Positions 8,415-52,839 of a stretch of 64,000 nt of DNA are shown one piece after another. Both the position numbers and the translations under genes were made by a program. The notes under the pieces were generated by a model that worked only from the letters and a program-made list of their open reading frames with translations, was not told where the DNA came from and made no database searches. The first letter of the stretch is position 1, and each line of letters begins with the position of its first letter. Location: positions 16,483 through 80,482 of the forward strand of contig CAVVMJ010000004.1 in assembly GCA_963749445.1 (NCBI GenBank), read 5' to 3'. This stretch comes from an uncultured bacterium. Lineage in GTDB: Bacteria; Patescibacteriota; Doudnabacteria; UBA920.

Positions 8415-8795
8415 TTAAGAATTTTGAATATAGAATTTAGTTTTTTTGATTATTCCGTGGAGCAATTTGCTTAGTTCTGTGTAGGAGCTTTCCATGTTTG
8501 ATAAGTCGGTCGCAGTAATATAACCAAGTTTTTCCGAAAATAGAAGTTGGCTTTGGATTTCCGTTAAGGAACCAAGGGCGATCGAGTAAAACTGCAATTT
8601 TTCCTTGTATGACTGTCTGCTGAAACCTTCGGCAATATTTGAGTTTAAAGAAACAGCTGCCCGCCTTAATTGTGAAGTTAAGGCAAACAGCTCTTCTTTG
8701 GGAAACGATTTTGTAAGTTTATATATTTCTAAACCAAGCTTGAAAGCCGACTGCCAGACTTTAAGATCCGTAAATGATTTAATGGTTTTTTCCAT
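8415..8795 (-). CDS. Four-helix-bundle protein of the '23S rRNA-intervening-sequence protein' family
   Basis: FTDLKVWQSAFKL...IY..T..FPKEE.F.LTSQLRRAAVS...NIAEGFSRQS matches the TIGR02436/PF05635 signature. Length 126 aa. Confidence 0.8.
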   Translation of the reverse strand: MEKTIKSFTDLKVWQSAFKLGLEIYKLTKSFPKEELFALTSQLRRAAVSLNSNIAEGFSRQSYKEKLQFYSIALGSLTEIQSQLLFSEKLGYITATDLSNMESSYTELSKLLHGIIKKTKFYIQNS

Positions 8796-8830
8796 TGCAA
8801 TCCAAAATTCTAAATTCCAGATTCTGTATT

Positions 8831-25994: not shown

Positions 25995-26215
25995 TTGTTG
26001 CGGAGCCTTCTCTCCTTTCATAGGCACTCATCGAGAATGAGGGGAGATGTCCCGAATGCATCTGAGGGACAGAGAGGTGGCTCCCGTTCGGGAACCACCT
26101 CTCTGTCACCGAAAGCGATTTTATCCTTTTGACTTTCGGCGACATCTCCCCTCACCCGCAGTATTGCTTATGAAAGGGGAGAAGGCTCCGCAGTCGTCCT
26201 CGTTTACCAATCAAT
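25995..26215. repeat. Three-tier nested palindrome (~220 bp) between the convergent rsmA and DUF192 genes
   Basis: Outer arms GCGGAGCCTTCTCTCCTTTCAT / ATGAAAGGGGAGAAGGCTCCGC. Middle arms GAGGGGAGATGTC / GACATCTCCCCTC. Core GACAGAGAGGTGGCTCCCGTTCGGGAACCACCTCTCTGTC. Confidence 0.7.
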
Positions 26216-26220
26216 CTAAA

Positions 26221-26739
26221 TCAGTTTCCCAACCGGACCTCATCTCCGGTTTTTATTTTATTCGCGTCGCTCCATCCCGCGTTTACTTCCAGAACTTGAT
26301 CAATCATCGCCGGCGGATAGTAGAGGGTCAACTTATCGCTCAGGGATTTTGGCGCCGGCACGTTTGGCGTGATGCCGATGATTTTGCCGTCGTTTATCCA
26401 AATCAAATCCAAATCAAAATGCATGCGCGGCATCCAGAAGGCGGGTTTGATGCCGTTGCCTCCGCCGGAGGCGGATCCGCCTCCGGCGGAAAAATCAAAC
26501 AGCATACCATCATCGTATGCCATTGATTCGCGATCAGACAACCCCTCTGCCATATCAGCGGATGTCGTGGCAATTTGCACGTTTAAAGTTTGATCGGATA
26601 TTTTTATTTGGTGATTGTAAAGCGAAACTGTTTTATCAGGTACAACAACCGGCGGAGCGGGGGATTGCTTGGCGCAGCCAGCGGCTAAAAGCAAAAACAG
26701 CAGCGGCAAACCGATATGTTTATTTAGAATTTTGACCAT
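26221..26739 (-). CDS. DUF192 (COG1430) family secreted protein with a perfect 30-bp palindrome in frame
   Basis: N-terminal signal/lipobox-like MVKILNKHIGLPLLFLLLAAGC. C-terminal LTLYYPPAMIDQVLEVNAGWSDANKIKTGDEV. The palindrome TCCGCCGGAGGCGGATCCGCCTCCGGCGGA at 26461-26490 encodes SAGGGSASGGG. Confidence 0.55.
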   Translation of the reverse strand: MVKILNKHIGLPLLFLLLAAGCAKQSPAPPVVVPDKTVSLYNHQIKISDQTLNVQIATTSADMAEGLSDRESMAYDDGMLFDFSAGGGSASGGGNGIKPAFWMPRMHFDLDLIWINDGKIIGITPNVPAPKSLSDKLTLYYPPAMIDQVLEVNAGWSDANKIKTGDEVRLGN

Positions 26740-27557: not shown

Positions 27558-28418
27558 ATGGACAGCGTAAATTTTCAAAATACTCAAACTCAATCGAGTC
27601 TCCATTTAGGCCATTTTAGTTTGGTGCTCTCGGTGGCGGTTTTGCTTTTGGGGATTTCCTGGATGAAGAATCCGCAGTTGTTTGCGGTTTTGCAATTTCA
27701 CCAAAGCGACGCGCAAACGGCGAGCGCGGACGCGCCGCGTTATTACGCTTACGTTACGCCGCCCGAAGACCAGCCCCAGCCCGCGGTGTTAGGCGCGAGC
27801 ACCAACCAGGGGCCGAGCATTATCCAGGACGACGGCACCGTGGTGCCGGTGGATATGGGCCAGGTTTTGGCCGCCAGCACCCAAGGCGTGGCGCTGTCTT
27901 TGGATGACATTAAAGTCAACCAGGTGCCGGATTCGGACGCGGACGCGCAAACATATTTTACGGCCGCGCAAAAGATTGAAAGCGGCTCCATTGGCGACGC
28001 GACGTTCGGCGCGGCTTTGACCTCGGGCGACCAGAACCAGATTAACCAACAGGCGCAAAAAATAATCGCGGTCCGCGACGCTTTGCAGCAGCTTGCCGTG
28101 CCACAAAGTTTGGTTAAACTGCAAAAATTAAAAATCATCCAATATAATTCTTCCATAAGTCTTTTGCAGAATTTTACCCAGGGCGACAAGAATTCGGATT
28201 TGGTTAACGAAGATATGCAGCAATTTTTAAAAAGCCAGCAGGATTTGGAAGCGGAAAGCGCCGTGGTGGCGCAAAAATATCCGACGCTGGATCCTGACGC
28301 GACTTTGTATGTTAATCCGGACGGCACGCCGACAAATATCCAGTCTGCCGAGGTAACGGCAAGCCAGGATAATTCTTTAACCGGTTCATCTTTAGACGAC
28401 GGCAATGCAGGCCAATAA
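27558..28418 (+). CDS. Hypothetical membrane-anchored extracellular protein (Q/A/D-rich)
   Basis: N-terminal TM HFSLVLSVAVLLLGISWM; the rest is low-complexity and coiled-coil. Confidence 0.4.
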   Translation: MDSVNFQNTQTQSSLHLGHFSLVLSVAVLLLGISWMKNPQLFAVLQFHQSDAQTASADAPRYYAYVTPPEDQPQPAVLGASTNQGPSIIQDDGTVVPVDMGQVLAASTQGVALSLDDIKVNQVPDSDADAQTYFTAAQKIESGSIGDATFGAALTSGDQNQINQQAQKIIAVRDALQQLAVPQSLVKLQKLKIIQYNSSISLLQNFTQGDKNSDLVNEDMQQFLKSQQDLEAESAVVAQKYPTLDPDATLYVNPDGTPTNIQSAEVTASQDNSLTGSSLDDGNAGQ

Positions 28419-30327
28419 GTTTCAAAAAATAGTTATCACGTTTTTAATTTTTAGCCAATTAGCATTCTGGCCGGCTTTTGCCTTGGCTTTTGTTAATACC
28501 GCCGCAGGTTCGTTAAACCCGGTGCCAATTAATGACACTGGTTCAATTGCTGCCAATAGCCTTTTTGATGGGGCATTTACTACCATAAAGACTTCTTATA
28601 CGGCTTGTACCGCTGATATAAAGGGTTTTGAGGCTACCGATAACGCCGCCTCGCTTGGTTTTTCGTTTTCTGCAATTATCGGCGGCGGGGGAGCACTAGC
28701 TGCGCAATTGCAACTAGAGGTTACAGCTTATAACAGTTATTTAAATACTCCGCTTTTGCCTCTGTGCCCAGGTATGCTTGCTTTGATGGCAACTTTGGAT
28801 AAGCTAACGGCTCCTAATACTTATACTAGCACGTTAAAACAGCAATTAGTGACTCAGATGAGATCTGACATCCAAACTTATAATGATAAACTCAAAACCG
28901 CCCAAGCTAGATATAACGTTGCCAGCCAAAGTGTTTGGAAGGCGTTGATGATTACCGTGTTAATCAACACCACCAAATCCGTGGCCGATCAGCTGGTGAA
29001 TAAGCTGGTGAATAATTATAAAATCGCCAACATCAAAGCCTACACCGATTCCTTGGCCACGCTGGCGTACGACAACCAATTTATCCGCGATAATTTTCCG
29101 GGTTCGCAGGATCAGCTGATGGCGCGGGCGATTTTGACAAATCCGATATTGCGGTCGCAAATCCAGCCGGGAATTTATACGGAGATAAATCAGAATCTGG
29201 GTTTTCAGCCGATGACCTTAAGCACCAGCGACCCGAATTATTACGCCAAGATGGCTGCCGTTGGAGCGACTAGCAACAATCCTTATTATGTGCAGACCGC
29301 TTTTGTTGTTGGCGTTGACGCGTCCCATGCTAATTCGGTGGCGCATGCCCAATTGCAGATTAGCCAGGGTAACGGTTATAAAGCGCCGGTCAATTGCGCC
29401 GGCAGTTTGTCCCAACAAAAACAGATTGATACGCAGACAAAAGCCGCCTCTGACCAGCTGGCCAACCGCCAGGCTTTATTGACTAATTTGCAGCAGGCCC
29501 AGGCGTTGGGCCAGAATGTTCCGGTCGCCGATTTGGCAAGAGCCCAAGCGGATTATAATTCGGCGCTGGCGGCCTGGAATAACGTGCCTTACACCGTCAG
29601 CGGACAAAATAGCGTCAGTAACGCCGCCGTGGGCGGCGGCAACAACACCGAAGGCACTATGGCCATAGTGATGTGCGAGGCGGTCGCTTCGCCGGCCGTT
29701 CTGGTTAACCAGGGTATTGACGCGATGTTTAAAGCCGTGGGCGCGAATATTTCACAATATAACAGCAATAACCTGCCCGGTTTCTTGAGCGCGATTGGCG
29801 GCATTGCCACGCAAATCGGTTCCAGTATGATTTTGGGCGGGATTACGGGCAATTCTTCCACAGTCAATGAAAAAATGGCCATTGGCCAGGCTATAAGCGC
29901 GACCACGGGGGCCACCGTCCAAACTATCAGCAACGCGGCCATAGCCAGCGCCGAGGGCAGCGGAGTTTTGTTTAACTCCACCCAAGGCGCGGGTAGCAGC
30001 GCGACTTTGAGCTGGCAGATTTTTACTATGAAATTGCCTACGGCCAGCTATGTGATAATTGTGAGCAGCACTAATCCCGTTGGTCCGAACCCGCGGCAGC
30101 CGCTTACCGGCAGTATGACAGTAAGCCCGACCTCCTACACCAATTACGTTTTGACTGTTTACGACGCCACGGGTAAAAGTTTAGGCACGGCCACTACATA
30201 TATCTCACCCGCCGCCACTCAACAGTCTTACAATTCCAATCCTAACGCTCCGGCCGTCGCCGGCGCCTTTACCATGGCCGCGCCTTTGGACATCCGCGGC
30301 CCGGCAGTGGCTTTGCATCCGAGATAG
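28405..30327 (+). CDS. Large hypothetical secreted protein (640 aa), Q/N/A/T-rich
   Basis: N-terminal signal-like FQKIVITFLIFSQLAFWPAFALA. No recognisable domain. Adjacent to the other secreted proteins of the cluster. Confidence 0.4.
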   Translation: MQANKFQKIVITFLIFSQLAFWPAFALAFVNTAAGSLNPVPINDTGSIAANSLFDGAFTTIKTSYTACTADIKGFEATDNAASLGFSFSAIIGGGGALAAQLQLEVTAYNSYLNTPLLPLCPGMLALMATLDKLTAPNTYTSTLKQQLVTQMRSDIQTYNDKLKTAQARYNVASQSVWKALMITVLINTTKSVADQLVNKLVNNYKIANIKAYTDSLATLAYDNQFIRDNFPGSQDQLMARAILTNPILRSQIQPGIYTEINQNLGFQPMTLSTSDPNYYAKMAAVGATSNNPYYVQTAFVVGVDASHANSVAHAQLQISQGNGYKAPVNCAGSLSQQKQIDTQTKAASDQLANRQALLTNLQQAQALGQNVPVADLARAQADYNSALAAWNNVPYTVSGQNSVSNAAVGGGNNTEGTMAIVMCEAVASPAVLVNQGIDAMFKAVGANISQYNSNNLPGFLSAIGGIATQIGSSMILGGITGNSSTVNEKMAIGQAISATTGATVQTISNAAIASAEGSGVLFNSTQGAGSSATLSWQIFTMKLPTASYVIIVSSTNPVGPNPRQPLTGSMTVSPTSYTNYVLTVYDATGKSLGTATTYISPAATQQSYNSNPNAPAVAGAFTMAAPLDIRGPAVALHPR

Positions 30328-30420
30328 TAATCGTAAGCATATTTAAATCGATAAACACTAAACCCAGAGGAAAGCCCCTGGGTTTTGAATTTTGCTTTAA
30401 ATGATGATTGATTATTTGAC

Positions 30421-30458
30421 GGCCGTCTAAAAAGCAGTCATAATGATAATATAAAGCA
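30421..30458. promoter_or_regulatory. Imperfect 38-bp palindrome (core GACGGCCGTC), ~20 bp upstream of the PaaX-like regulator; candidate operator
   Basis: ATGATTGATTATTTGACGGCCGTCTAAAAAGCAGTCAT. Same architecture as the perfect palindrome at 31027-31064. Confidence 0.55.
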
Positions 30459-30480
30459 CTAACATTGATTGAGAACAAAT

Positions 30481-31023
30481 ATGGCAAAAAGGAAATTAAC
30501 GGTAACGGCGCAAATTTTGTTATATCTATTTACCGCGGTGGATATGCTGCCGCGGCCGTTTGAATCCAAAATGGGTTATTATAAAAGATTGTTTTTCGGC
30601 AAAGTCCCTTATCGCACTTTTGCCAGCGCCTTAAACAGTTTGGAGAGGCGGGGTATTATAAAAATTTACAAGGATACATCGGGCGAGAAATTTATAAAAC
30701 TTACTCATAAGGGGCAGTTGGAAACTTTATTGCTAAAAGCCAAACAGGGCGTTAACTGTCACGGGAAGTGGGACGGCAAGTGGAGATTGGTAATATTTGA
30801 TATCCCCGAGGATGCGAGAGAGAAGCGCAATGAATTTAGAATATTGCTCAAGAAAAATAGTTTTAAAGGTTTGCAGGCCAGCGTGTTCATTAGCCCTTAT
30901 CCTTTGAACAGAGAAGCGATAACCTATTTGCGGGAAAGTAAGCTGATCCAATATATTAGGATTTTAAAAGTTGAGGAAATGGATAGTGATAAAGATTTAA
31001 AGCGGCATTTTAATTTGAGGTAA
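30481..31023 (+). CDS. PaaX-like transcriptional regulator (N-terminal winged helix plus C-terminal Cas2-like/PaaX_C fold)
   Basis: wHTH region YRTFASALNSLERRGIIKI. C-terminal W-x-LVIFDIPED...R..FR.LL.K..F..LQ.SVF, a Cas2/PaaX_C-like beta-alpha-beta motif. Confidence 0.45.
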   Translation: MAKRKLTVTAQILLYLFTAVDMLPRPFESKMGYYKRLFFGKVPYRTFASALNSLERRGIIKIYKDTSGEKFIKLTHKGQLETLLLKAKQGVNCHGKWDGKWRLVIFDIPEDAREKRNEFRILLKKNSFKGLQASVFISPYPLNREAITYLRESKLIQYIRILKVEEMDSDKDLKRHFNLR

Positions 31024-31026
31024 TAT

Positions 31027-31064
31027 ATGATTGCATTTTAGACGGCCGTCTAAAATGCAATCAT
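31027..31064. promoter_or_regulatory. Perfect 38-bp palindrome ATGATTGCATTTTAGACGGCCGTCTAAAATGCAATCAT just after the regulator stop; candidate operator/terminator
   Basis: An exact reverse-complement palindrome with the same core and flanks as the site at 30421-30458. It lies upstream of the TGGTATAAT promoter at ~31204 for the VirB6-like gene. Confidence 0.55.
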
Positions 31065-31333
31065 TAAAAATTGAACTTTGCCGGTCTGGCGGCCGAGGAA
31101 GAGCGAAAAGTATCGTAAGTTTGGCAACCTGAGGATAACTCGGGATCTTTTTGTTCGTTAAGGGCGGCCGTTTGGCCGGATTTTGTGTTTTAAATTTATT
31201 TGTGGTATAATTCGGTCATCTGGATAAGTCAAAAGGCCAATATTTGCTGAAGTTTTGGGGATGATATCGGCTTTATGGAAAATTGAGGGAGATAAGCAAA
31301 ATATAGGCGGGATTCTTAACAAATTCCACTCTT

Positions 31334-34300
31334 TTGAAGAAACTAAAATCAAAATTTAGAGCCCTGCCGGCCTATTGCGTTTTGGCAATCCTGCTATTGA
31401 CCCTGGCAGGCGGTTTTTTGCTGCCTTTAGATAATAATGCCCAGGCTCTTAGTATAGGACCGGGCACGGATTGTTCCGGAAGCCGTTCGCCAGATGTTAA
31501 TAGTGGTATGAGAGTATGTAATACGAGCAATGTTAACATATCCGTTGATACTTATGTTCCAGACCCAAACGGAAATCTTCAGAAGGGAAATCTTGTTAAA
31601 ATCACTCCGACCGATACTATAACTTTGAAGGTTGTTATTACTTTGAATAATCCGCCTGACATAAAGGCTAACCCTAATGGGAGCGGCGCGGACGAATTTT
31701 ATTTTCCCGGGGTAGCGAAAAACCCTGATATTTTAGGTTTCGGGGTTACCATAACGCCCCAAGATACGACAAATTTTTGTAAGAATGTGAACATAAGCGT
31801 GATTCTTGGCGGCTCATACCAGCGTTGTCAAAGCAATGTGGGTACTCAAACTTGGCAGCCAAGTTCTTTGACAACTTTTACAGCAGGAAGTCCTGTTTAT
31901 ACAGACACCTTAACTATTAGTCCAGATCAATTCCAATACTTGGGAATTACCAAAAAAAGGGATATTAACAATCCGACCGGTTCCCCTGGCCTAAATCAAA
32001 TTTTTGTCTATCCTGATATGAAGCTTAGCACGACTTTATCATCGGATTGGGCTACAAATTTTGCCGGTGGAGCACCGTTATTTGTTGAGCTTTATGCTAA
32101 CAGCACTGACAAACAGAATGATACATCCAGCAATCCGCCGGCTTGTGTAGGCCAAGTCAATAACGGCACCAGCACGCCGCCAAGTTGTGTTCCTGGCTAT
32201 GGCACCATTACTTCTTCTGGCGGCAGCACTAGTGCCGGCGGTAGCGACTTGATTGGTCTAATCAACAGAATTCTCGGCACTCTTTTGGGGATTATCGGCG
32301 AGTTTATTTATTTTTTGTTTTACAATCTGCTGGCGCCGATGATGCAGGCTATGCTGCAAATCCACACTTATACCGATACATTCGTGGGCGTAATTTACCC
32401 GGCCTGGATTGTGGTGCGCAACGCCTGCAATATTATGTTCATTGTGGCCATTATTGCCATTGCCATGGGCACGCTGTTTCGGGTGGAAAGCTACCAGTAT
32501 AAACATCTTTTAGTGCAATTAATTATTGCGGCACTGCTGGTGAATTTCAGTTTGGTCATTGGCCAGGCGATTTTGGGCGTGGCTGACACGGCGCAAAACC
32601 AATTTTTGCCCAATAACGTGGATGTTATCCGCAGCTTGGGCAAAAATTTAATGGTGCAAAATATGTCCCAAGCCTGGAATTTTAATATTTCCCAGGGATA
32701 TTTTAGCACTACGGTCCAGCAGTTGTTTTTGTTGGCCATGTCCATCGGAAGTTTTTTGGTATTTCTCGCCATTACCGTATTTTTGGTAATCAGGATGGTG
32801 ATGTTATGGATTTTGTTGATGGTTTCGCCGGTTGCTTACGTGGCCGGGATTTTGCCTACGACTACCCAGTACCGGAGTATGTGGTGGAGTAATTTTATCA
32901 AGTACGCTTTCTTTACCCCGATTATGGCGTTCTTGCTGAACATCGCGGCTTACATTGCCAATATGCAAACCAACAACGGCGTGCTGAATTATTTAAAAGT
33001 TGATTCCACCGCTTTGGGAAGCAGCAGCTTTGCGTCTTTCGTGTTTTTGTCGGCGAGCAATATAATTTTGCTGGTATTCCTGTTTGCCGCGCTAATGGTA
33101 GCCGACAAGCTCGGCGTCATCGGCGGCAACGTCGCCGCCACCTGGGGCAAAAAAGGCCTGCTGGCGCCGTTTGCTAGCGCGGGCTGGCTGGGCAAACGTG
33201 GGTTGGGTTGGGTAAACCGAAAAAGGCAGGAAATCGGAGCCGGTCTGTTGGAGCAGGAAGGTTCGCATATGCCGGGTTTTTGGAAAAAAACAGGTTTTTT
33301 ACTTAGTAATCCCGACGCATTTTTTAAAGGCTGGCAGGCTCGTGCGGAAGAATTAAAACATCAAGCGGAAGGCACGGCTACCGCTGGCGGTCGGGAAATG
33401 TCCGAACGGTTTTTAACTACGGAATATCGTCCTTGGAAAGCTGGCTTTGGGCACGCGCACATTAGAATTCCTTACCGGCAGTTTGCGGAAAGAAAGGATG
33501 AAAATGCTTTGGTCCAGGATTATTCAACTATGCGTAAAGAAAGTTTAATGTCTGCGGCAATGGACGCCGAAAAACTTGGTGGGGAAGAGGGCAAAAGAAG
33601 ACGACGCGCCATTGTCTTGGCGGCTGCCAAGCAAGGTTATATGGACGACTTGCTTAGAAAAAATCATTTTGCCAGTCAATATGCCGATAAAGACGGAACT
33701 TTTTATAGTGCGGAAGTTTTAAACCGATTTTTGTATGGTTATTTAGGGGAAGACGAACAAGCTCAACGCTTAATGGCTGAAGATTTGGAGGAATTAGGCA
33801 AGACAACCGGCCATTATGAATATTTAGGGCATGCATATTTTGATAATGATACGGGGAAGTTTAAACGGGGCATGGAGTCAGTTGGCGATGCCGAAGGCGT
33901 CGGCAGCAGAATAATCAAAGGAGGCAAATTAAAAAATACCTGGCAGGTTGGTTATTCCGTGGGTGAGCTGAAAAAAGTTAGCGGTCGTGCGCGTTCGCAG
34001 ATCGCGCCTCACAATATGGTTACTTTGAGGGCGGAATTGGACGGTAGCGGAAATTTTAAGGACAAAAACGAAATTCATGATCAAATGTACGGCAGAGTTA
34101 GTGGTGACCTTGATGAGTACCAGCAGGGCGTTTTGTCAATGTTTGACGGTGCCACACTACAGCAAGCGAGTTTTTCACAGGGAAGGTCTAAGGAATGGAT
34201 TTTGAGCGAGGACATTGATAAAAATACCGGCGCGGTTATTGTCAAAGACGATCTTGACGTAAAGCGCATCCAGAGGTTGTATGAAGAAAATCCGGATTTT

Positions 34301-34987
34301 GTGCGCACCATGTATGCCCAGTTAACCAATATGCAGCCTTCCGAGGTCAAAGGAATTAAAGTAGTAAAATTAGATGCGGCAGGTAAAACAGGTCCTGTTA
34401 CCCACTTGGGTGATACCACAGTTACCGTAACGCCAGTCATTAAGACTGTGTCTACCGAAGTACTTGATAGTAAAACTTTGGGTCTCGTTAAAGACGAAAA
34501 AGAAGCTTTAATACAAGGTAAGGTTATAGATAATGCTATTGAGTCCGCTTATGCAGGCACTATTTCTCCGGCAGCCCTAGAAGCGAATCTTGCTGGCGTT
34601 TTGCCTGCTACACCGCCAGCACGTGTTACTGCAATTAAGGACGAAATATACAAAAAGGTTAAGGATGAATATTCAGAAAAATATGATCCTATGACCGTAA
34701 TTTCTAGAATGGATAAAAAGTATAATTTTACGCCAGCGGAAATATCAGAATTAAGGAAAGAGTTTCAGCCATTGGCAGGACAGGCTTTTGATAGAGCCAC
34801 AACTGCAAATCGGGCAGTAACCAGAGCTGACTTTGACGCAGTAGTAAGGACAAAGATTGCCGCAGTGGCTGGACGTTTAGGCGCAGCTAGTAAATTAGCA
34901 AAAACCTTTACTGATCCACATAACCCAGCAGCAGCTGCTAATTTGGCTGCCGCTGAAAAATTGTTTATTGATCATATGAGTCCATAA
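31334..34987 (+). CDS. Giant polytopic membrane protein, VirB6/TrbL-like: ~300-aa extracellular N-domain, 7-8 TM helices, ~600-aa hydrophilic C-domain; likely TTG start
   Basis: Signal-like N-terminus. The TM cluster (LLGIIGEFIYFLFYNLLAPMM ... FVFLSASNIILLVFLFAALMV) resembles TrbL/VirB6 and TcpH-type conjugation channel proteins. Located in the same cluster as VirB4 and the PrgI-like protein. Confidence 0.4.
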   Translation: MKKLKSKFRALPAYCVLAILLLTLAGGFLLPLDNNAQALSIGPGTDCSGSRSPDVNSGMRVCNTSNVNISVDTYVPDPNGNLQKGNLVKITPTDTITLKVVITLNNPPDIKANPNGSGADEFYFPGVAKNPDILGFGVTITPQDTTNFCKNVNISVILGGSYQRCQSNVGTQTWQPSSLTTFTAGSPVYTDTLTISPDQFQYLGITKKRDINNPTGSPGLNQIFVYPDMKLSTTLSSDWATNFAGGAPLFVELYANSTDKQNDTSSNPPACVGQVNNGTSTPPSCVPGYGTITSSGGSTSAGGSDLIGLINRILGTLLGIIGEFIYFLFYNLLAPMMQAMLQIHTYTDTFVGVIYPAWIVVRNACNIMFIVAIIAIAMGTLFRVESYQYKHLLVQLIIAALLVNFSLVIGQAILGVADTAQNQFLPNNVDVIRSLGKNLMVQNMSQAWNFNISQGYFSTTVQQLFLLAMSIGSFLVFLAITVFLVIRMVMLWILLMVSPVAYVAGILPTTTQYRSMWWSNFIKYAFFTPIMAFLLNIAAYIANMQTNNGVLNYLKVDSTALGSSSFASFVFLSASNIILLVFLFAALMVADKLGVIGGNVAATWGKKGLLAPFASAGWLGKRGLGWVNRKRQEIGAGLLEQEGSHMPGFWKKTGFLLSNPDAFFKGWQARAEELKHQAEGTATAGGREMSERFLTTEYRPWKAGFGHAHIRIPYRQFAERKDENALVQDYSTMRKESLMSAAMDAEKLGGEEGKRRRRAIVLAAAKQGYMDDLLRKNHFASQYADKDGTFYSAEVLNRFLYGYLGEDEQAQRLMAEDLEELGKTTGHYEYLGHAYFDNDTGKFKRGMESVGDAEGVGSRIIKGGKLKNTWQVGYSVGELKKVSGRARSQIAPHNMVTLRAELDGSGNFKDKNEIHDQMYGRVSGDLDEYQQGVLSMFDGATLQQASFSQGRSKEWILSEDIDKNTGAVIVKDDLDVKRIQRLYEENPDFVRTMYAQLTNMQPSEVKGIKVVKLDAAGKTGPVTHLGDTTVTVTPVIKTVSTEVLDSKTLGLVKDEKEALIQGKVIDNAIESAYAGTISPAALEANLAGVLPATPPARVTAIKDEIYKKVKDEYSEKYDPMTVISRMDKKYNFTPAEISELRKEFQPLAGQAFDRATTANRAVTRADFDAVVRTKIAAVAGRLGAASKLAKTFTDPHNPAAAANLAAAEKLFIDHMSP

Positions 34988-39667: not shown

Positions 39668-40267
39668 TTGCATTTTAATAGCGGTTTCAAAAAAATAAAA
39701 GTGGCGCCGACCAAACGCCTTAAAAGGCCCATAATTTGCGATTATGATGACAAAAATAACATTAACTTACAAAAATTCCTCATGCCTGCAAAAGGCGTTT
39801 GGAATGGGAGGTTGATATACTGGGTGCAATTTCCCGTACCTCAATTTACCGAAGTGGAAGATAAAATTATCGGATCGCTTACCGTTAAGCAGTTCGGGGT
39901 GATTTTTGGCGGCGGCGTGCTGATTTTTTTGGCTTTTACCTTGACCAAAAGCGTTGTTGTGCTGATTTTCGCTGCCGTCATATTCGGCCTGCCGACTTTA
40001 GGTTTGGCTTTTGCCAGGCTTAACGGGCGGCCGATGTACAACATGATCGGGAATTTCGTGGGTTTTTTGACCAGCGCCAAGGTCTTAGTGTTCCATAAGG
40101 AAGGCTCTTTGGTTTCCGATCGGGAGAGAAAAGACAAAACCCCGCCGGTTGCCGCCGCCCCAAACCCGGATGGAACAAAAGCCGTAAGCCCGAAACAAAG
40201 GCTAAGGGAGGTTAATAAGATGCTGGAACAAAACGCGCAGAAGGAAGAGGAGTTGTTCAAGAAATGA
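39668..40267 (+). CDS. PrgI/VirB3-like small two-TM protein immediately upstream of VirB4
   Basis: KIIGSLTVKQFGVIFGGGVLIFLAF matches the PrgI-family 'F.GPLTLRQF.YL..G' segment preceding two TM helices. Gene order PrgI-like then VirB4 is as in monoderm T4SS. Confidence 0.45.
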   Translation: MHFNSGFKKIKVAPTKRLKRPIICDYDDKNNINLQKFLMPAKGVWNGRLIYWVQFPVPQFTEVEDKIIGSLTVKQFGVIFGGGVLIFLAFTLTKSVVVLIFAAVIFGLPTLGLAFARLNGRPMYNMIGNFVGFLTSAKVLVFHKEGSLVSDRERKDKTPPVAAAPNPDGTKAVSPKQRLREVNKMLEQNAQKEEELFKK

Positions 40268-40350
40268 GCATTTAGCATTTAGCATTTAGCGATTAGCCAG
40301 ACATGTTTGGCTAAATGCTAACTGCTAACTGCTAAATGCTAACTGCCAGA
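40268..40350. repeat. Family-3 intergenic element (TTAGCATTTAGC-type)
   Basis: GCATTTAGCATTTAGCATTTAGCGATTAGCCAGACATGTTTGGCTAAATGCTAACTGCTAACTGCTAAATGCTAACTGCC. Confidence 0.7.
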
Positions 40351-46254: not shown

Positions 46255-47406
46255 ATGAATAAAAAAGCCATTGCCATTTTGGGTGCGATTTTTCTCTTGA
46301 TTGTGGGGACTTTGGGTTTTTTGATTTATGCCAAATACGGCGGTAAAAAAACTACTCCGGCGCCAGTCGCGGTTATTCCGGCTTCAACGTCAACTCCGGC
46401 AACCGCGTCCAGTACCCCGCCGGTTGCCACTCCTCCGCCGAACCAGCAGTTTACTAAGCTTTTGTCCAGCCAGGTGGTTTCCCCGATCCTGTTTTATAAC
46501 GGCCAGGGCGTGTCTTATTTTGATCCCAGCGGGCAGCTTTACCAGGCGGCCTTGCAGTCCGGCGGCGGTGTGTCCGCTCCCCAGTTTGCCAATCCCCAGG
46601 CTTTAAACGTTCAGACAAAATCCGACATCAGCGAAATCCTGTGGCCGCCGGCTGGCGATAATTTTATAGCGGAGTCCGATAGCGGCAGCCAAAGAGTCTG
46701 GAGTTTTTACAACAGCCAAACCCGCAGCTATACCGATTTGCCGCCGCAAGTGGAAGCTTTTGACTGGCTGCCCTCTGGCCAGCAGATTTATTACATTTGG
46801 CTGGACAGCGGTAAGGCCGCGCTCAATATTGGCGACGGCGACACCAACAATTGGAAGTACATTGCCGATATGTGGGAGCAGGATGACGCTTTGAGCGTCT
46901 CTCCGGACGGACGGAATATTTTGTATTACGAACGCAATACCGCCACTTCCACCAACCCGATTAACCTGGTCACCCCCGACGGAAAAATCTGGAAAACATT
47001 GATTTCCACGGGCATAAATTACGGTGTGTTGTGGAGCCCGGACAGCCAAAAGTTTTTGTTCGGCAAAAAAGATTCCACCGGCAGTTTTTACCAGTTGTGG
47101 TATTACAATTTGTTGACCGGGCAGGTCAGCCCGTTGTATCTTAATACCACGGTCAACAAAGTAGTGTGGGGCAAAGACAGCCAAACGATTTACGCGGCCG
47201 TCCCGCTCAGCGGGATTGCCGGCAGCGGAAATTTGACCACGGACAGTTTTTATAAATATAACACCCAAACCGGCGACAAGCAGCAGTACGATCCGGGCAG
47301 CACTGCAATTGACGGGGAAAACCTGTTTTTAAACAGCGACGGATCCGGCCTGTTTTTCAAGAACGCGCAGGATGGGGGGTTGTACGATCTGAATTTGAAC
47401 CAATAA
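46255..47406 (+). CDS. Secreted or membrane-anchored TolB-like beta-propeller (PD40 repeat) protein
   Basis: N-terminal TM AIAILGAIFLLIVGTLGFLIY, a Pro/Thr linker, then PD40-like repeats (SPDGRNILYYERN; LWSPDSQKFLFGKKD; VVWGKDSQTIYAAV). Confidence 0.5.
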   Translation: MNKKAIAILGAIFLLIVGTLGFLIYAKYGGKKTTPAPVAVIPASTSTPATASSTPPVATPPPNQQFTKLLSSQVVSPILFYNGQGVSYFDPSGQLYQAALQSGGGVSAPQFANPQALNVQTKSDISEILWPPAGDNFIAESDSGSQRVWSFYNSQTRSYTDLPPQVEAFDWLPSGQQIYYIWLDSGKAALNIGDGDTNNWKYIADMWEQDDALSVSPDGRNILYYERNTATSTNPINLVTPDGKIWKTLISTGINYGVLWSPDSQKFLFGKKDSTGSFYQLWYYNLLTGQVSPLYLNTTVNKVVWGKDSQTIYAAVPLSGIAGSGNLTTDSFYKYNTQTGDKQQYDPGSTAIDGENLFLNSDGSGLFFKNAQDGGLYDLNLNQ

Positions 47407-47480
47407 AAGCGTTTAGCAGATAGCATTTAGCGTTTAGCCAGACAGTTTTGCGTGGCTAAGTGCTAATTGCTATATGCTAA
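47407..47480. repeat. Family-3 intergenic element
   Basis: AGCGTTTAGCAGATAGCATTTAGCGTTTAGCCAGACAGTTTTGCGTGGCTAAGTGCTAATTGCTATATGCTAACAGC. Confidence 0.7.
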
Positions 47481-47490
47481 CAGCTTTTTT

Positions 47491-49665: not shown

Positions 49666-50460
49666 CTAGTCAAATGGAACAGGCTTTAGCGTTTTAGATA
49701 AGTAATCATTGGGTGAAGTAAAGATTTCCGGTAAGGAAAATCTGAGGCAAAATTCACTCACGTATTCGGGTAGGTATTGTGGGGTGGTGTGGTGGTACAT
49801 CCTGCGGATAAAAGTCCTTAAGTTTCCAAACATTCCTTCAATTTCGGAGGTCAGGCCAAACTCAAATTTCTTGTGTATATCGACCTTGTGCTTAACCTGC
49901 CACCACTGCTCAATTTGTTTGTAAATACCAGCTCCGTCGGTTTGCAGTTTAGTCTTAGGCTCTATGCTCTGAAAAATGAATTGCGCGGCTTCGGTCTTGT
50001 TGACTGAATTTTTAAAAATCACCTGATGGGCTAATTTTTTACTTCCTACCTGTTTGGCTAATAGTAATGAGAGTTGTTTAAAGTAAGCTTCATCCATTTG
50101 GACACAACCAGTTAAAATCGGCTGCAAATCGGGCAAATGCAATCGAAATTCCCTAAACCAACGGTATACGGCTTCTTCCCCCACATGGCAGAGTTTCTGG
50201 GTCTGGAGCACCGGAATCCTTTGGGTCCAGCACCACAGTAAAGCGTAAAAGGTTCTCAAATTTAATTTCATGCCTGAAAGCCAGGTACCGACCAGCAGGC
50301 TAAAAGGTTTCCGGCACTTCCTACAGCGATAACGATTTTCCGATGAATATACCTTACGGCTACGACACCTGGGACAGGCAAGATTCTTCCCAAAGATGAT
50401 TTGCCTTAATTGCTGTCTAATTTTGGCCTCACTGGGTATCTGGTTTAAGAGTGCGATCAT
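49666..50460 (-). CDS. IS1595-family transposase (N-terminal zinc ribbon plus DDE domain)
   Basis: Zn ribbon CPRCRSRKVYSSENRYRCRKCRKPFS. DDE-region motifs GCVQMDEAYF, LQTDGAGIYKQI and SEIEGMFGNLRTFI, typical of IS1595/ISXO2-like transposases. The element ends were not resolved. Confidence 0.7.
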   Translation of the reverse strand: MIALLNQIPSEAKIRQQLRQIIFGKNLACPRCRSRKVYSSENRYRCRKCRKPFSLLVGTWLSGMKLNLRTFYALLWCWTQRIPVLQTQKLCHVGEEAVYRWFREFRLHLPDLQPILTGCVQMDEAYFKQLSLLLAKQVGSKKLAHQVIFKNSVNKTEAAQFIFQSIEPKTKLQTDGAGIYKQIEQWWQVKHKVDIHKKFEFGLTSEIEGMFGNLRTFIRRMYHHTTPQYLPEYVSEFCLRFSLPEIFTSPNDYLSKTLKPVPFD

Positions 50461-50634: not shown

Positions 50635-52839
50635 CTATTCAAAATGTACGCTTTTGCCGGCGATTTTTTCTTTCAAAAGCGGATAGTTGTCTAAATTCAA
50701 ATCATCTTTCAAAATCGCCAAAGCTTCCTGGCGGGCGGGTTCGATCAAAGATGTATAGGAGGGGTTAAAGTATTTAAAATTCCAGCCGGATTGCTGGGAG
50801 CCGTAGACTTCGCCAAAGCCGCGGGTTTTTAGGTCCAGTTCGGCGAGTTCAAAGCCGTCCTGGGTTTTAGTGAAAGATTCAAGGCGTGCGATGGTATCAT
50901 TTTTAACATCTGCTCCAACCACCTCCCCCCGCTTCGCGGGGTACTCCTCCTTAGAAAAGAAGGAGAGGCTCCGCGGATTGTTCGAGGTTAACTGCGGAGC
51001 TTCCCCTCCTTGCTGAGGAGGGGTGTCCCGACGAAGTCGGGACGGGGTGGTTGGACTCATAAATAAAAAACAATAGCTTTGATGTTCGGCGCGGCCGACG
51101 CGGCCGCGGAACTGGTGGAGCTGGGCCAGGCCAAATCTTTCCGCGCCTTCAATGACCATTACGCTGGCGTTGGGGATGTCCACGCCGACTTCCACCACGG
51201 ACGTGGAAACCAAAATTTGGATTTTGTTTTCCAAAAAGTCTTTCATTACGCTCTCTTTTTCCGCGCCCTTGAGCCGGCCGTGCATCAGGCCGATGTTAAA
51301 CTTGGGAAAAACTTTTTTTAAATTTTTCAGTTCGGTCTTGGCGGCTTTGACGCCAAGTTTATCACTTTCTTCAATCAGCGGCGTAATTACAAACACCTGA
51401 CGGCCGGTGTTTATCTGGTTTGCGATAAATTCATAAGCCTGCCCGCGGTTTTTGTGTTCAACCAGCTTGGTCACAATCGCTTTGCGCCCCAGGGGCTTCA
51501 TCTTTATTTGGGAAATATCAAGTTCCCCGTAAAAAGCCAGCTGTAGGGTGCGGGGGATGGGAGTTGCGGATAATGATAGCAAATGCGGTACTTTTCCACT
51601 AGTTTTCATCAACTCCGCCCGCTGCTCCACTCCAAACCGGTGTTGCTCGTCAATAATTACCAGAGCCAAGTTTTTGAATTTTACTTTTTTTTGCAGCAAA
51701 GCGTGCGTGCCTATATATAGACCGGGGCGGCCTTCCGCAATTTGTCTGGTTAAATTAGATTTTTGTATTTTTCCCAGTTGGTCCAAAGAGAAAGAATTGG
51801 TCAAAAGCGCAGTTGAACATAACTTCTGGCCAGAAGTTATGTTCAACAAGTATTTTTTTGTTGTTTCAAAATGCTGGCGGGCTAAAATTTCCGTGGGCGC
51901 CAAAAAGACGGCTTGATAATCGTCGGAGATTGCCTGTAAGGCTGCTATCAGCGCCACCAAAGTTTTGCCGCTGCCTACGTCGCCTTCCAAAAGCCGGTTC
52001 ATGGGCCGCGGTTTTTCCAAATCCTGCAGAATTTCCCAGGCGGCTTTTTTTTGCGCCGGTGTGAGTTCAAAAGGCAAAGTTAAGACAAAGTTTTTGATTA
52101 GCGTCTGGTCAAATTTTATCGGGTAAGCCTGTTTTACGGCCAGCTCCAGTTTGTGTTTTTGCGCCAGCAATTGATTGTAAAAAATTTCTTCAAATGCCAG
52201 GCGGGCTTTGGCCTCCGCCAGCTTTTCGGCGTCATCGGGAAAGTGCGAAAACTTGACGGTGTCGGCAATGGGCAAAAGCCGTTGGCGCCGCAAAATGTCG
52301 GCCGGTAAATTGTCGGTTAAACTATCGGCGAGGTTTAAAACTGCGCCTATCGCGCGCCGGAAAGTTTTGGGGTAAACTTTTTCCGGCAAGCGGGGATAGA
52401 GGGGAACCAAGCGGGAAGTGTGTAGGGGGAAATCGGATACTTTTTCGTAGGTTGGGTTAGTGAGTTGGAGGCTGAAATTGTAGATTTCCGGCGCGCCTGC
52501 CAGGAAAACCTCGTCGCCTTTTTGCAGCTGGTCGGCTACGTACCCTTGGTTAAACCACACGACTTTTAAAGAGCCGGTGTCATCGGAAACCACGGCTTCG
52601 GCCAAAGACATCCGGCTGCGGAACGAAAAACGCCTGCTGATTTGTTTAACGGTAACTTTAATGCTGGCATTTTCGCCCGGGGTTAAATCCTTGATTTTTT
52701 TGATTTGGGAAAAATCCAAATACCTTCGCGGGAAATACAGCAGCAAATCCCGAGCCGCGGTGAGGCCGAGCTTTTTTAAAGCCGCAACCTGCGGCTTGGT
52801 AAAGATTTTTATTTGCTCAATGGCGTCGTCAAGTTGCAT
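50635..52839 (-). CDS. recG: ATP-dependent DNA helicase RecG with an in-frame family-1 palindromic insertion
   Basis: N-terminal wedge domain, helicase motifs GDVGSGKTLVA, DEQHRFGV and QLHQFRGRVGR. The insert at 50906-51054 encodes TTPSRLRRDTPPQQGGEAPQLTSNNPRSLSFFSKEEYPAKRGEVVG. Confidence 0.9.
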   Translation of the reverse strand: MQLDDAIEQIKIFTKPQVAALKKLGLTAARDLLLYFPRRYLDFSQIKKIKDLTPGENASIKVTVKQISRRFSFRSRMSLAEAVVSDDTGSLKVVWFNQGYVADQLQKGDEVFLAGAPEIYNFSLQLTNPTYEKVSDFPLHTSRLVPLYPRLPEKVYPKTFRRAIGAVLNLADSLTDNLPADILRRQRLLPIADTVKFSHFPDDAEKLAEAKARLAFEEIFYNQLLAQKHKLELAVKQAYPIKFDQTLIKNFVLTLPFELTPAQKKAAWEILQDLEKPRPMNRLLEGDVGSGKTLVALIAALQAISDDYQAVFLAPTEILARQHFETTKKYLLNITSGQKLCSTALLTNSFSLDQLGKIQKSNLTRQIAEGRPGLYIGTHALLQKKVKFKNLALVIIDEQHRFGVEQRAELMKTSGKVPHLLSLSATPIPRTLQLAFYGELDISQIKMKPLGRKAIVTKLVEHKNRGQAYEFIANQINTGRQVFVITPLIEESDKLGVKAAKTELKNLKKVFPKFNIGLMHGRLKGAEKESVMKDFLENKIQILVSTSVVEVGVDIPNASVMVIEGAERFGLAQLHQFRGRVGRAEHQSYCFLFMSPTTPSRLRRDTPPQQGGEAPQLTSNNPRSLSFFSKEEYPAKRGEVVGADVKNDTIARLESFTKTQDGFELAELDLKTRGFGEVYGSQQSGWNFKYFNPSYTSLIEPARQEALAILKDDLNLDNYPLLKEKIAGKSVHFE

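What the first reader, a model, noticed from the sequence alone, without database searches (positions are those of the whole stretch)
30421..31064. PaaX-like regulator gene bracketed by two 38-bp palindromes with a GACGGCCGTC core
ATGATTGATTATTTGACGGCCGTCTAAAAAGCAGTCAT lies 20 bp upstream of the start, and the perfect palindrome ATGATTGCATTTTAGACGGCCGTCTAAAATGCAATCAT lies just after the stop. This is ahead of the extended -10 promoter (TGGTATAAT, ~31204) of the VirB6-like gene. Two long, near-identical dyads around a wHTH regulator strongly suggest autoregulatory and target operators that control the secretion-like cluster.
Basis: seen in the sequence. Interest (0 to 1): 0.55.

Follow-up and report, generated by a model that had tools for sequence, protein, structure and literature searches.

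The report
Self-bracketing mini-PaaX repressor with palindromic operators
A small DNA-binding protein gene in an ultrasmall (Patescibacteria/CPR) bacterium has the same 38-bp palindrome on each side of it, and this gene-between-two-palindromes layout recurs across a large, undescribed protein family, most likely as a self-contained autoregulatory unit rather than a switch for the neighbouring secretion genes.

Summary
There are two 38-bp dyads: 30404-30441 (imperfect) and 31027-31064 (perfect). They are the only GACGGCCGTC sites in the 64 kb. They bracket a 180-aa gene (30481-31023) whose product has a winged-helix domain and a Cas2-like PaaX_M domain but no PaaX effector domain ("mini-PaaX").

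The layout is family-wide. Of 76 homologous loci with enough flank on both sides, 44 carry a 28-44-bp zero-loop palindrome next to the gene. The background rate is 0.009 per 160 nt. The centre is mostly CGGCCG. The arms are locus-specific but shared by the two copies of a locus (identity 0.81 within loci against 0.34 between loci), and arm similarity tracks the winged-helix half of the protein.

The upstream copy overlaps the gene's own promoter (TTGACG-17-CATAAT), which suggests autorepression. The downstream copy abuts the stop codon whatever gene follows and in whichever orientation. In this clade it lies about 140 bp upstream of an invariant VirB6/TrbL promoter. That promoter persists in a relative that has neither the regulator nor the palindromes.

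Best reading: these are cognate operators of a self-insulating autoregulator. The "autoregulatory" part is supported. The "target operator for the secretion cluster" part is not. Binding itself is untested.

The parts
28405..30327 (+). Upstream neighbour: a 640-aa protein with no Pfam family. It is a syntenic partner of the regulator in this clade.
   Evidence: No Pfam hit. Homologues precede the regulator in L093, L020, L036, L094 and L096.
30360..30395 (+). Terminator-like hairpin of the upstream gene (AAACCCAGAGG...CCCCTGGGTTT, then a T-rich tail). It lies upstream of pal1.
   Evidence: (I6). An equivalent hairpin occupies the same place in L008, L093 and L095. pal1 is therefore not needed as that gene's terminator.
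30404..30441 (.). pal1: imperfect 38-bp dyad with centre ACGGCCGT. Proposed autoregulatory operator.
   Evidence: It is 37/38 identical in the 82%-identity relative L008, although the following leader sequence has diverged.
30416..30444 (+). Predicted sigma-70-type promoter of the regulator gene: TTGACG (30416-30421), 17 nt, CATAAT (30439-30444). It lies inside and at the edge of pal1.
   Evidence: 10 of 12 consensus matches. The same TTGACG/TTCACG-17-xAxAAT geometry relative to the dyad is seen in L008, L009, L092, L093, L091, L035 and L039.
30481..31023 (+). [quoted passage not shown] There is no PaaX_C domain.
   Evidence: Pfam PF20803 at 3e-20 and PF09827 at 2.3e-5. AF2 model with pLDDT 81. 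The top Foldseek hit is E. coli PaaX 8a39, followed by Cas2 proteins. The family has 3575 representatives at E<=1e-10.
31027..31064 (.). pal2: perfect 38-bp palindrome starting 3 nt after the stop codon. Proposed high-affinity auxiliary operator, acting by looping or as a roadblock.
   Evidence: I2. L008 has a perfect palindrome at the same place, with four mirrored changes in the inner segment. It has no promoter hexamers and no U-tract.
31128..31186 (+). Two terminator-like hairpins with T-runs (31128-31144 and 31165-31178). They probably mark the end of the regulator's transcript.
   Evidence: This stretch is not conserved in relatives.
31178..31211 (+). Conserved promoter block of the TrbL/VirB6-like gene, ATTTTGTGTTTTAAATTTATTTGTGGTATAAT, with an extended -10 TGGTATAAT at 31203-31211. 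It is not part of the palindrome system.
   Evidence: It is almost invariant in window, L008 and L092. It is also present in L094, and in L095, which lacks the regulator.
31334..34987 (+). Downstream neighbour: a 1217-aa TrbL/VirB6-like membrane protein (context only).
   Evidence: Pfam TrbL at 0.0036, below the curated cutoff. Homologues in L092, L094 and L095 carry TrbL_3.

Best explanation
The two dyads are the cognate binding sites of the protein encoded between them.

The protein is a 'mini-PaaX': a winged-helix DNA-binding domain fused to a Cas2-like dimerisation domain, without the ligand-binding C-terminal domain of true PaaX. A dimer would span one roughly 38-bp dyad. Each winged helix would read a locus-specific outer arm, about 11-19 bp from the dyad axis. 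The conserved Cas2-like dimer, or the wings, would sit over the conserved CGGCCG centre.

The upstream site covers the -35 and abuts the -10 of the gene's own promoter, so occupancy shuts the gene off (negative autoregulation). The downstream site, normally the better palindrome and placed right at the stop codon, would be an auxiliary operator. It could cooperate with the upstream site by looping out the ~600-bp gene. It could also act as a protein roadblock that insulates the gene from its neighbours.

Shown here:
- The sites exist and are gene-specific.
- They are conserved family-wide.
- The two copies of a locus share their arms, and arm similarity tracks the wHTH half of the protein.
- The sites are absent where the gene is absent.
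- The upstream site overlaps a promoter-like element.

Inferred: binding, repression, and looping or roadblock.
For: Specificity. There are only 2 copies in 64 kb. In 267 kb of flanking DNA from related loci, only one further palindrome of this class was found.

Family-wide architecture. A palindrome scoring >=12 lies within 160 nt upstream in 23/79 loci, within 130 nt downstream in 41/77, and on at least one side in 44/76. The background is 0.009 per 160 nt. The centre hexamer is CGGCCG in 41 of 64 sites.

Same arms at both ends of a locus. Median identity is 0.81 within loci against 0.34 between loci, p=8e-21.

Arms track the DNA-binding half of the protein. Mantel r=0.20, p=5e-4. The partial correlation given the C-terminal half is r=0.15, p=5e-4. 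The C-terminal half given the N-terminal half is not significant. Paralogues within one genome each have their own arms.

Double-stranded, two-fold symmetric reading. The dyads are almost always zero-loop. Variant centres are mostly double, mirrored changes (CGATCG 6, CGTACG 4). Mismatches show no G-U bias: A.C 19 against G.T 18.

Promoter overlap. TTGACG-17-CATAAT lies inside pal1 and recurs in relatives. pal1 plus the -10 is 37/38 conserved against L008, while the leader sequence diverges.

Co-absence. L095 keeps the flanking genes and the TrbL promoter but has no regulator and no palindrome.

Precedent. E. coli PaaX binds TGATTC(N27)GAATCA and represses its own promoter (PMC9493321). A 1-mismatch site lies upstream of paaA in K-12. 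Here the site reads TGATTG(N24)CAATCA. The fold is PaaX-like.
Against: No binding or expression data exist.

The role of the downstream site is not explained by any standard autoregulation model.

In some loci the two palindromes have unrelated arms (L025), and some loci carry extra palindromes with other arms (L096). About 40% of loci show no palindrome at my threshold.

Perfect symmetry at positions that differ between close relatives is more than a typical operator needs. It could reflect hairpin or cruciform selection, or quasi-palindrome correction.

The Mantel signal is modest and confounded by phylogeny.

The enrichment of -10-like hexamers in upstream over downstream copies is only marginal (19/42 against 13/51, p=0.05).
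Confidence: 0.55

Rival explanations
1. One reading: pal1 is the autoregulatory operator, and pal2 is the target operator through which the regulator directly controls the promoter of the VirB6/TrbL-like gene and the secretion-like cluster.
For: The order [640-aa protein]-[regulator]-[TrbL-like] is conserved across this orthologous group, down to about 42-58% identity of the neighbour. L092 has two tandem palindromes between the regulator and the TrbL gene. The window also holds a PrgI/VirB3-like gene.
Against: The centre of pal2 lies about 170 bp upstream of the expected start site. Non-conserved DNA and two terminator-like hairpins lie in between.

The TrbL promoter block is invariant, while the arms differ between window and L092.

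L095 keeps the promoter without the regulator or the palindromes.

Downstream palindromes are a family-wide feature, found next to CysS, ArgS, ComEC and other genes. In 10 of 34 cases the neighbour is convergent.

There are no other sites in the 64 kb.
Confidence: 0.15
2. Mobile or recombination cassette. The two palindromes would be recombination or cleavage sites (lox/dif-like arms around a 6-bp core, or IS-like ends). The Cas2-like protein, or a host recombinase, would act on them, so the gene could be excised, inverted or moved.
For: The layout resembles an IS element: one end overlaps the gene's promoter and the other abuts the stop codon. Neighbourhoods across the family are very diverse, with 88 singleton neighbour clusters. 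The whole unit is present or absent between syntenic genomes. There is a solo palindrome at L025:508-541. The Cas2-type Asp (D107) is invariant.
Against: Regulator and neighbours diverge together within synteny groups, which indicates vertical inheritance. Similarity does not extend beyond the palindromes, and there are no target-site duplications. No near-identical copies turn up in different contexts. There are no hits in phage, plasmid or viral-contig collections. No recombinase lies nearby.
Confidence: 0.08
3. RNA-level element. The palindromes would act as transcript hairpins: mRNA 3'-end stabiliser, U-tract-less terminator, or a hairpin bound by the RRM-like Cas2 domain for post-transcriptional autoregulation.
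For: As RNA, pal2 folds at -22.9 kcal/mol, z=-8. It sits in the 3' UTR, before the terminator-like hairpins. Variable stems around a conserved centre resemble a protein-recognised hairpin.
Against: The centre is self-complementary in about 85% of sites, which a hairpin loop does not require. There is no G-U bias in mismatches. pal1 overlaps the promoter, so it would not be fully transcribed, and it folds weakly at -9.3, z=-1.5. pal2 has no U-tract. There is no Rfam family.
Confidence: 0.07
4. Generic genome repeat (REP-like) or ordinary bidirectional terminator, unrelated to the regulator.
For: Both dyads lie at gene ends. In some loci (for example L024) a T-run follows the downstream dyad.
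Against: There are only two copies in 64 kb. The class is essentially confined to the flanks of this gene family. The upstream gene has its own canonical terminator. The arms are shared by the two sites of a locus but differ between loci. The sites are absent when the regulator is absent.
Confidence: 0.04

Closest known systems
PaaX, phenylacetyl-CoA-responsive repressor of the paa genes (E. coli, Pseudomonas)
   Same: It shares the wHTH plus Cas2-like middle domain. 8a39 is the best fold match, over 139 columns. The WDGKW motif is shared. PaaX binds a long, widely spaced inverted repeat of about 39 bp, TGATTC-N27-GAATCA, and represses its own promoter (PMC9493321; site upstream of paaA). Here the site is 38 bp, with TGATTG-N24-CAATCA at its ends.
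   Different: The window protein has 180 aa against 316. It has no PaaX_C effector domain. TIGR02277 scores 31.8 against a cutoff of 264.55. There are no paa genes nearby. It keeps the Cas2-type FDIPE motif where E. coli PaaX reads SEGLD. Its operators are perfect full-length palindromes with a conserved CGGCCG centre, and they sit on both sides of the gene.
Cas2 (CRISPR adaptation protein) and VapD
   Same: The C-terminal half has the Cas2 ferredoxin-like fold and the Asp at the end of strand 1. Many database entries for the family are named 'Cas2'.
   Different: It is fused to a wHTH. There is no cas1, and no cas gene was called around the gene in any locus read. The Cas2 annotation is a misnomer.
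Lambdoid immunity regions and other looped repressor systems (CI with OL/OR; lac O1/O3; gal OE/OI). This comparison rests on my own knowledge.
   Same: A repressor gene lies between two operators bound by the same protein. The looping and autoregulation logic would be the same.
   Different: This is an analogy in function only. The protein fold is different. Each side has a single long dyad. The neighbours are housekeeping genes, and the family is absent from the phage collections searched.
Insertion-sequence ends, and RAYT genes flanked by REPs (own knowledge)
   Same: The gene is bracketed by matching inverted sequences. One end overlaps the gene's promoter and the other abuts the stop codon.
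   Different: There are no dispersed copies, no target duplications, no transposase or tyrosine-HUH fold, and synteny points to vertical inheritance.

Membership tests
PaaX family (TIGR02277; Pfam PaaX N-terminal, PaaX_M and PaaX_C domains) | Central Cas2-like PaaX_M domain | tested here: met
   PF20803 scores 3e-20, 72.6 bits against a cutoff of 24, over residues 96-170.
PaaX family (TIGR02277; Pfam PaaX N-terminal, PaaX_M and PaaX_C domains) | [quoted passage not shown] | tested here: met
   The AF2 model shows H8-21, H30-39, H44-57 and a wing at E60-64/E70-74. Foldseek and BLASTP align this region to E. coli PaaX. No Pfam N-terminal PaaX model was hit.
PaaX family (TIGR02277; Pfam PaaX N-terminal, PaaX_M and PaaX_C domains) | C-terminal helical effector (phenylacetyl-CoA) domain, and a full-length equivalog score | tested here: not met
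   The protein ends at residue 180. There is no PaaX_C hit. TIGR02277 scores 31.8 bits against a cutoff of 264.55.
PaaX family (TIGR02277; Pfam PaaX N-terminal, PaaX_M and PaaX_C domains) | Linkage to paa catabolic genes | tested here: not met
   The neighbours are a UvrD-like helicase, KsgA, unknown proteins and a TrbL-like protein in the window. They are diverse housekeeping genes elsewhere.
PaaX family (TIGR02277; Pfam PaaX N-terminal, PaaX_M and PaaX_C domains) | Operator made of 6-bp inverted half-sites about 27 bp apart, overlapping the promoter | tested here: inconclusive
   The geometry is similar: TGATTG-N24-CAATCA, 38 bp, overlapping the -35 and -10. However, that degenerate pattern alone is not rarer than chance (3 found against 2.97 expected), the arms differ across the family, and binding was not tested.
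Cas2 | Cas2 fold and HMM | tested here: met
   PF09827 scores 24.9 against 23.8, and TIGR01573 scores 26.6 against 24.5. Both are marginal and cover only about 40-50 residues. Cas2 structures rank 2nd and below in the fold search.
Cas2 | Stand-alone protein of about 90-110 aa, encoded next to cas1 and a CRISPR array | tested here: not met
   This is a 180-aa fusion with a wHTH. No cas1 was found among the nearest genes I scanned in the window, or among the genes called in six annotated loci. I did not run a CRISPR-array search on the window.
REP / dispersed palindromic repeat | Many near-identical copies scattered in intergenic regions | tested here: not met
   There are 2 copies in 64 kb. One extra palindrome of this class was found in 267 kb of related flanks. 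No complete genome was available.
Intrinsic terminator | GC-rich stem, 3-8-nt loop, and a U-tract directly after the stem | tested here: not met
   pal2 has no loop and is followed by TAAAAATTG. It was not listed by the terminator scan. pal1 overlaps a promoter.
Insertion sequence / MITE | Terminal inverted repeats with target-site duplication, multiple copies, and a transposase | tested here: not met
   There is no similarity or duplication beyond the palindrome ends. There is one copy in the window. The locus is syntenic and vertically inherited.

The most novel reading that the evidence does not exclude
The palindrome-gene-palindrome unit is not only an autoregulatory circuit. On this reading it is a self-contained DNA-processing element.

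The invariant Cas2-type acidic motif (FDIPE, with D107) of the dimer would sit over the conserved CGGCCG dyad. It would nick, cleave or synapse the two palindromes. That would make this a new class of sequence-programmed Cas2-like DNA enzyme, or a 'floxed' gene switch. Its variable winged helices and arms would form many orthogonal protein-site pairs.
Probability: 0.08. Interest if true: 0.85.

Novelty: new variant of a known kind. Interest (0 to 1): 0.6.

Why it matters
Patescibacteria (CPR) make up a large share of bacterial diversity. They have tiny genomes, and almost nothing is known about their gene regulation.

This family has thousands of diverged members: 3575 cluster representatives at E<=1e-10. 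Several paralogues can occur in one genome. Sources that name it mostly call it Cas2, and my literature searches found no description of it. It may therefore be one of the main transcription-factor families of the group.

Each member comes with a computationally readable, locus-specific operator of about 38 bp at both ends of its gene. That gives three things:
- a direct handle for predicting regulons in uncultivated organisms;
- a natural library of orthogonal repressor-operator pairs;
- an unexplained architecture (a perfect dyad at the stop codon) that can be tested in E. coli with simple reporters.

It also corrects the tempting assumption that this regulator directly switches the conserved T4SS-like cluster.

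Tried and rejected
- I scanned genome contigs for GACGGCCGTCTAAAANGCA. It gave 6 single hits, about what chance predicts. I read only L002, the one Patescibacteria hit, and it lies inside a coding sequence. The source genome is apparently not in that collection, so a genome-wide copy count was impossible.
- The degenerate pattern TGATTG-N24-CAATCA with up to 2 mismatches has no power on its own: 3 hits against 2.97 expected.
- There is no Rfam match.
- PADLOC and PHROGs gave only weak Cas2 or generic regulator hits.
- There are no homologues in the phage, plasmid or IMG/VR collections.
- There is no paralogue in the window.
- Extension of similarity beyond the palindrome ends (TIR, TSD or direct-repeat tests) is at background, 0.32-0.36.
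- Literature searches for PaaX together with Cas2-like, Patescibacteria or Saccharibacteria found nothing. The Patescibacteria T4SS paper does not mention such a regulator.
- The PaaX structure paper is not in the library, so I could not compare the dimer geometry.
- The intergenic DNA of L095 is too diverged to map the exact indel boundaries, so insertion and deletion could not be told apart directly. Parsimony favours loss.
Full report
**1. The observation**

Reading 30200-31400 shows both dyads. pal1 is ATGATTGATTATTTGACGGCCGTCTAAAAAGCAGTCAT at 30404-30441. pal2 is ATGATTGCATTTTAGACGGCCGTCTAAAATGCAATCAT at 31027-31064.

The repeat finder reports pal2 as 19+19 nt, 100% complementary, with no nucleotide between the arms. 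It reports pal1 as an overlapping palindrome with 24-nt arms that are 79% complementary. The two dyads differ at 6 of 38 positions.

GACGGCCGTC occurs twice in 64 kb against 0.05 expected. The 18-nt core and the 19-nt half-site, each with up to 3 mismatches, find nothing else. ACGGCCGT itself occurs only at these two places.

The ORF between the dyads is 30469/30481-31023. The homologue alignment favours the ATG at 30481. pal1 therefore ends 39 nt before the start codon, not 20, and pal2 begins 3 nt after the stop codon. TGGTATAAT is at 31203-31211.

**2. The protein**

Pfam gives PaaX_M ('PaaX central Cas2-like domain') at 3e-20, and a marginal Cas2 hit. The PaaX equivalog model TIGR02277 scores 31.8 bits against a cutoff of 264.55.

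An AlphaFold2 model built on 108 homologues (pLDDT 81) shows a three-helix winged-helix domain with a beta wing, a linker helix, and a ferredoxin-like domain. Its best PDB match is E. coli PaaX (8a39), over 139 columns. Cas2 proteins and Rv0674 follow.

BLASTP against K-12 PaaX gives 25% identity over residues 37-155. The WDGKW motif is shared. The FDIPE motif reads SEGLD in E. coli.

The protein stops where the PaaX effector domain would begin. I call it a mini-PaaX. It is not a Cas2, although sources that name it mostly call it that. Among the loci whose called genes carry Pfam annotation, none has cas1 nearby.

The family is large. A profile search finds 3575 cluster representatives at E<=1e-10. 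Every source name that gives an organism says Patescibacteria.

**3. The decisive result: the layout is a property of the family**

The 82%-identical relative L008 has pal1 with one substitution. At the position of pal2 it has a different, but again perfect, palindrome: ATGATTGTTTTTTTCACGGCCGTGAAAAAAACAATCAT. The 77% relative L009 has a near-perfect dyad upstream.

I then fetched 80 metagenomic loci and scanned the flanks of each homologue.

- **Enrichment.** A zero- or two-loop palindrome scoring >=12 lies within 160 nt upstream in 23/79 loci, within 130 nt downstream in 41/77, and on at least one side in 44/76. In 267 kb of the same loci away from the gene, the rate is 0.009 per 160 nt.
- **Centre.** The central hexamer is CGGCCG in 41 of 64 sites. 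The other centres are CGATCG, CGTACG, CGGTCG, CGACCG and a few singletons.
- **Information content.** It is high at the central CCGT, moderate in an A/T-rich inner segment, and low in the outer 9 nt.
- **Same arms within a locus.** The two copies of one locus share their arms: median identity 0.81 against 0.34 between loci, p=8e-21. They are identical in L023 and L037.
- **Paralogues.** One genome (GCA_013387205.1) has at least three paralogues, each with its own arms.
- **Link to the DNA-binding half.** Arm similarity correlates with identity of the N-terminal (wHTH) half, also after regressing out the C-terminal half. The reverse partial correlation is not significant.

**4. What the dyads are not**

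*Not generic repeats or terminators.*
- The class is confined to this gene's flanks.
- The upstream gene has its own canonical terminator ahead of pal1, here and in relatives.
- pal2 has no loop and no U-tract.

*Not obviously RNA hairpins.*
- The very centre is self-complementary in about 85% of sites. Variant centres are mostly mirrored double changes.
- Mismatches show no G-U bias, 18 G.T against 19 A.C.
- pal1 overlaps the promoter and would fold weakly as RNA.
- No Rfam family matches.

*Not an evident mobile element.*
- Similarity stops exactly at the palindrome ends.
- There are no hits in phage, plasmid or viral collections.
- Within synteny groups, the regulator and its neighbours diverge together.

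**5. The upstream copy and the promoter**

pal1 contains TTGACG (30416-30421), formed by the left side of the dyad centre. CATAAT (30439-30444) straddles its right end at a 17-nt spacing, giving 10 of 12 consensus matches.

The same geometry, with the -35 immediately left of the dyad axis and the -10 starting 17 nt to its right, appears in L008, L009, L092, L093, L091, L035 and L039. Many other upstream copies run into TGnTAnnnT extended -10 motifs.

Downstream copies with the same arms lack these hexamers. Statistically, though, the enrichment is only marginal: 19/42 against 13/51.

Between the window and L008, pal1 plus the -10 is 37/38 conserved, while the leader after it has diverged. A dimer bound across roughly -48 to -11 would exclude RNA polymerase.

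This matches what is reported for PaaX. PaaX binds TGATTC(N27)GAATCA and represses its own Px promoter by steric hindrance (review PMC9493321). I confirmed a 1-mismatch site directly upstream of paaA in K-12.

**6. The downstream copy**

It is the more constant and usually the more perfect of the two. It typically starts within a few nucleotides of the stop codon, or overlaps it.

It occurs whatever gene follows: CysS, ArgS, RpoB, IF-2, ComEC, glycosyltransferases and others. Neighbour clustering gave 88 singleton clusters. It also occurs when the next gene is convergent, in 10 of 34 cases.

In the window's own orthologous group, the order [640-aa protein]-[regulator]-[TrbL/VirB6-like] is conserved (L093, L092, L020, L094, L096). 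This is real support for an association with the T4SS-like cluster. The window also has a PrgI/VirB3-like gene.

Even so, the palindrome lies 140-150 bp upstream of a promoter block, ATTTTGTGTTTTAAAnnTATTTnTGGTATAAT. That block is nearly invariant in window, L008, L092 and L094, although their palindrome arms differ. The DNA in between is not conserved and carries terminator-like hairpins.

L095, from an 868-kb contig, keeps the full synteny and this promoter, but has neither the regulator nor any palindrome. The palindromes therefore travel with the regulator gene, not with the TrbL promoter.

**7. Mechanism proposed**

The mini-PaaX dimer binds both dyads. The upstream site mediates negative autoregulation. 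The downstream site is a high-affinity auxiliary operator. It would act by looping out the ~600-bp gene, by blocking transcription into or out of the gene, or both.

The pairing of conserved protein half with conserved dyad centre, and of variable wHTH with variable arms, suggests a bipartite contact. That is an inference, and none of the binding steps has been tested.

Fast, concerted divergence of arms and wHTH, with little sign of other sites, fits a regulator whose main target is itself and that must stay orthogonal to its paralogues.

**8. Loose ends**

- L025 has three CGGCCG-centred perfect palindromes with unrelated arms. One is a solo site between ruvA and a femAB-like gene.
- L096 has two further perfect palindromes of 42-46 bp, with other centres, downstream of its paralogue.
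- Perfect symmetry is kept even at positions that change between close relatives. This may reflect template-switch correction rather than protein contacts (own knowledge).
- The Cas2-type Asp is invariant.

These keep a more exotic reading alive, in which the protein processes DNA at the dyads, but at low probability.

**9. Verdict**

The finding is best classed as a new variant of the PaaX-type repressor-operator system. It is a truncated, Patescibacteria-wide family with an undescribed gene-bracketing pair of long palindromic operators.

Noticed in passing
window 51812-51847: A perfect 36-bp palindrome, GTTGAACATAACTTCTGGCCAGAAGTTATGTTCAAC (centre TGGCCA), lies inside the recG coding sequence (ORF 50635-52839, minus strand). 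It encodes roughly LLNITSGQKLCST, just after helicase motif Ia. It is far too long to arise by chance, and its half-site occurs nowhere else in the window.
   Followed up: partly
window 40267-40340 and 47405-47488: Two long inverted arrays built from heptamer repeats (TTAGCAT / ATGCTAA, for example AGCATTTAGCATTTAGCATTTAGC...GCTAAATGCTAACTGCTAACTGCTAAATGCT) sit in intergenic gaps. One is right after the PrgI/VirB3-like gene, and the other is between a beta-propeller gene and radA. They may be a dispersed repeat family of this genome.
   Followed up: no
window 31178-31211; L008 901-934; L092 ~917-950; L094 ~8768-8801; L095 ~8146-8180: A 33-nt promoter block of the TrbL/VirB6-like gene, ATTTTGTGTTTTAAAnnTATTTnTGGTATAAT, is almost invariant among genomes whose proteins are only 40-60% identical. 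This is much more conserved than a bare promoter needs to be, which suggests a conserved factor binds there.
   Followed up: partly
L025 508-541: A solo CGGCCG-centred perfect 34-bp palindrome, ACTTGTATAGTAAGCGGCCGCTTACTATACAAGT, lies in the 5-nt-tight gap between ruvA and a femAB-like gene. Its arms are unrelated to the two palindromes flanking the mini-PaaX gene 3.4 kb away.
   Followed up: partly
L096 9192-9237 and 9259-9300: Two different perfect palindromes of 46 and 42 bp (centres GATATC and TAATTA) lie in tandem in an ~800-nt non-coding stretch downstream of a 225-aa paralogue. That paralogue's own upstream dyad is a third perfect palindrome, 42 bp, with centre CAATTG.
   Followed up: no
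window 49666-50460 (minus strand): An IS1595/ISXO2-type transposase gene lies next to recG.
   Followed up: no
window 26461-26490 and L071 256-285: A nearly identical 30-bp GC-rich palindrome, TCCGCCGGAGGCGGATCCGCCTCCGGCGGA, is found in two unrelated loci. It may be coding (in the window it lies within ORF 26047-26526), but I did not examine it.
   Followed up: no
L029 1358-1407: A 50-bp perfect palindrome (centre ACGCGT) lies 2.6 kb from the mini-PaaX gene of that locus. Its class is unknown.
   Followed up: no
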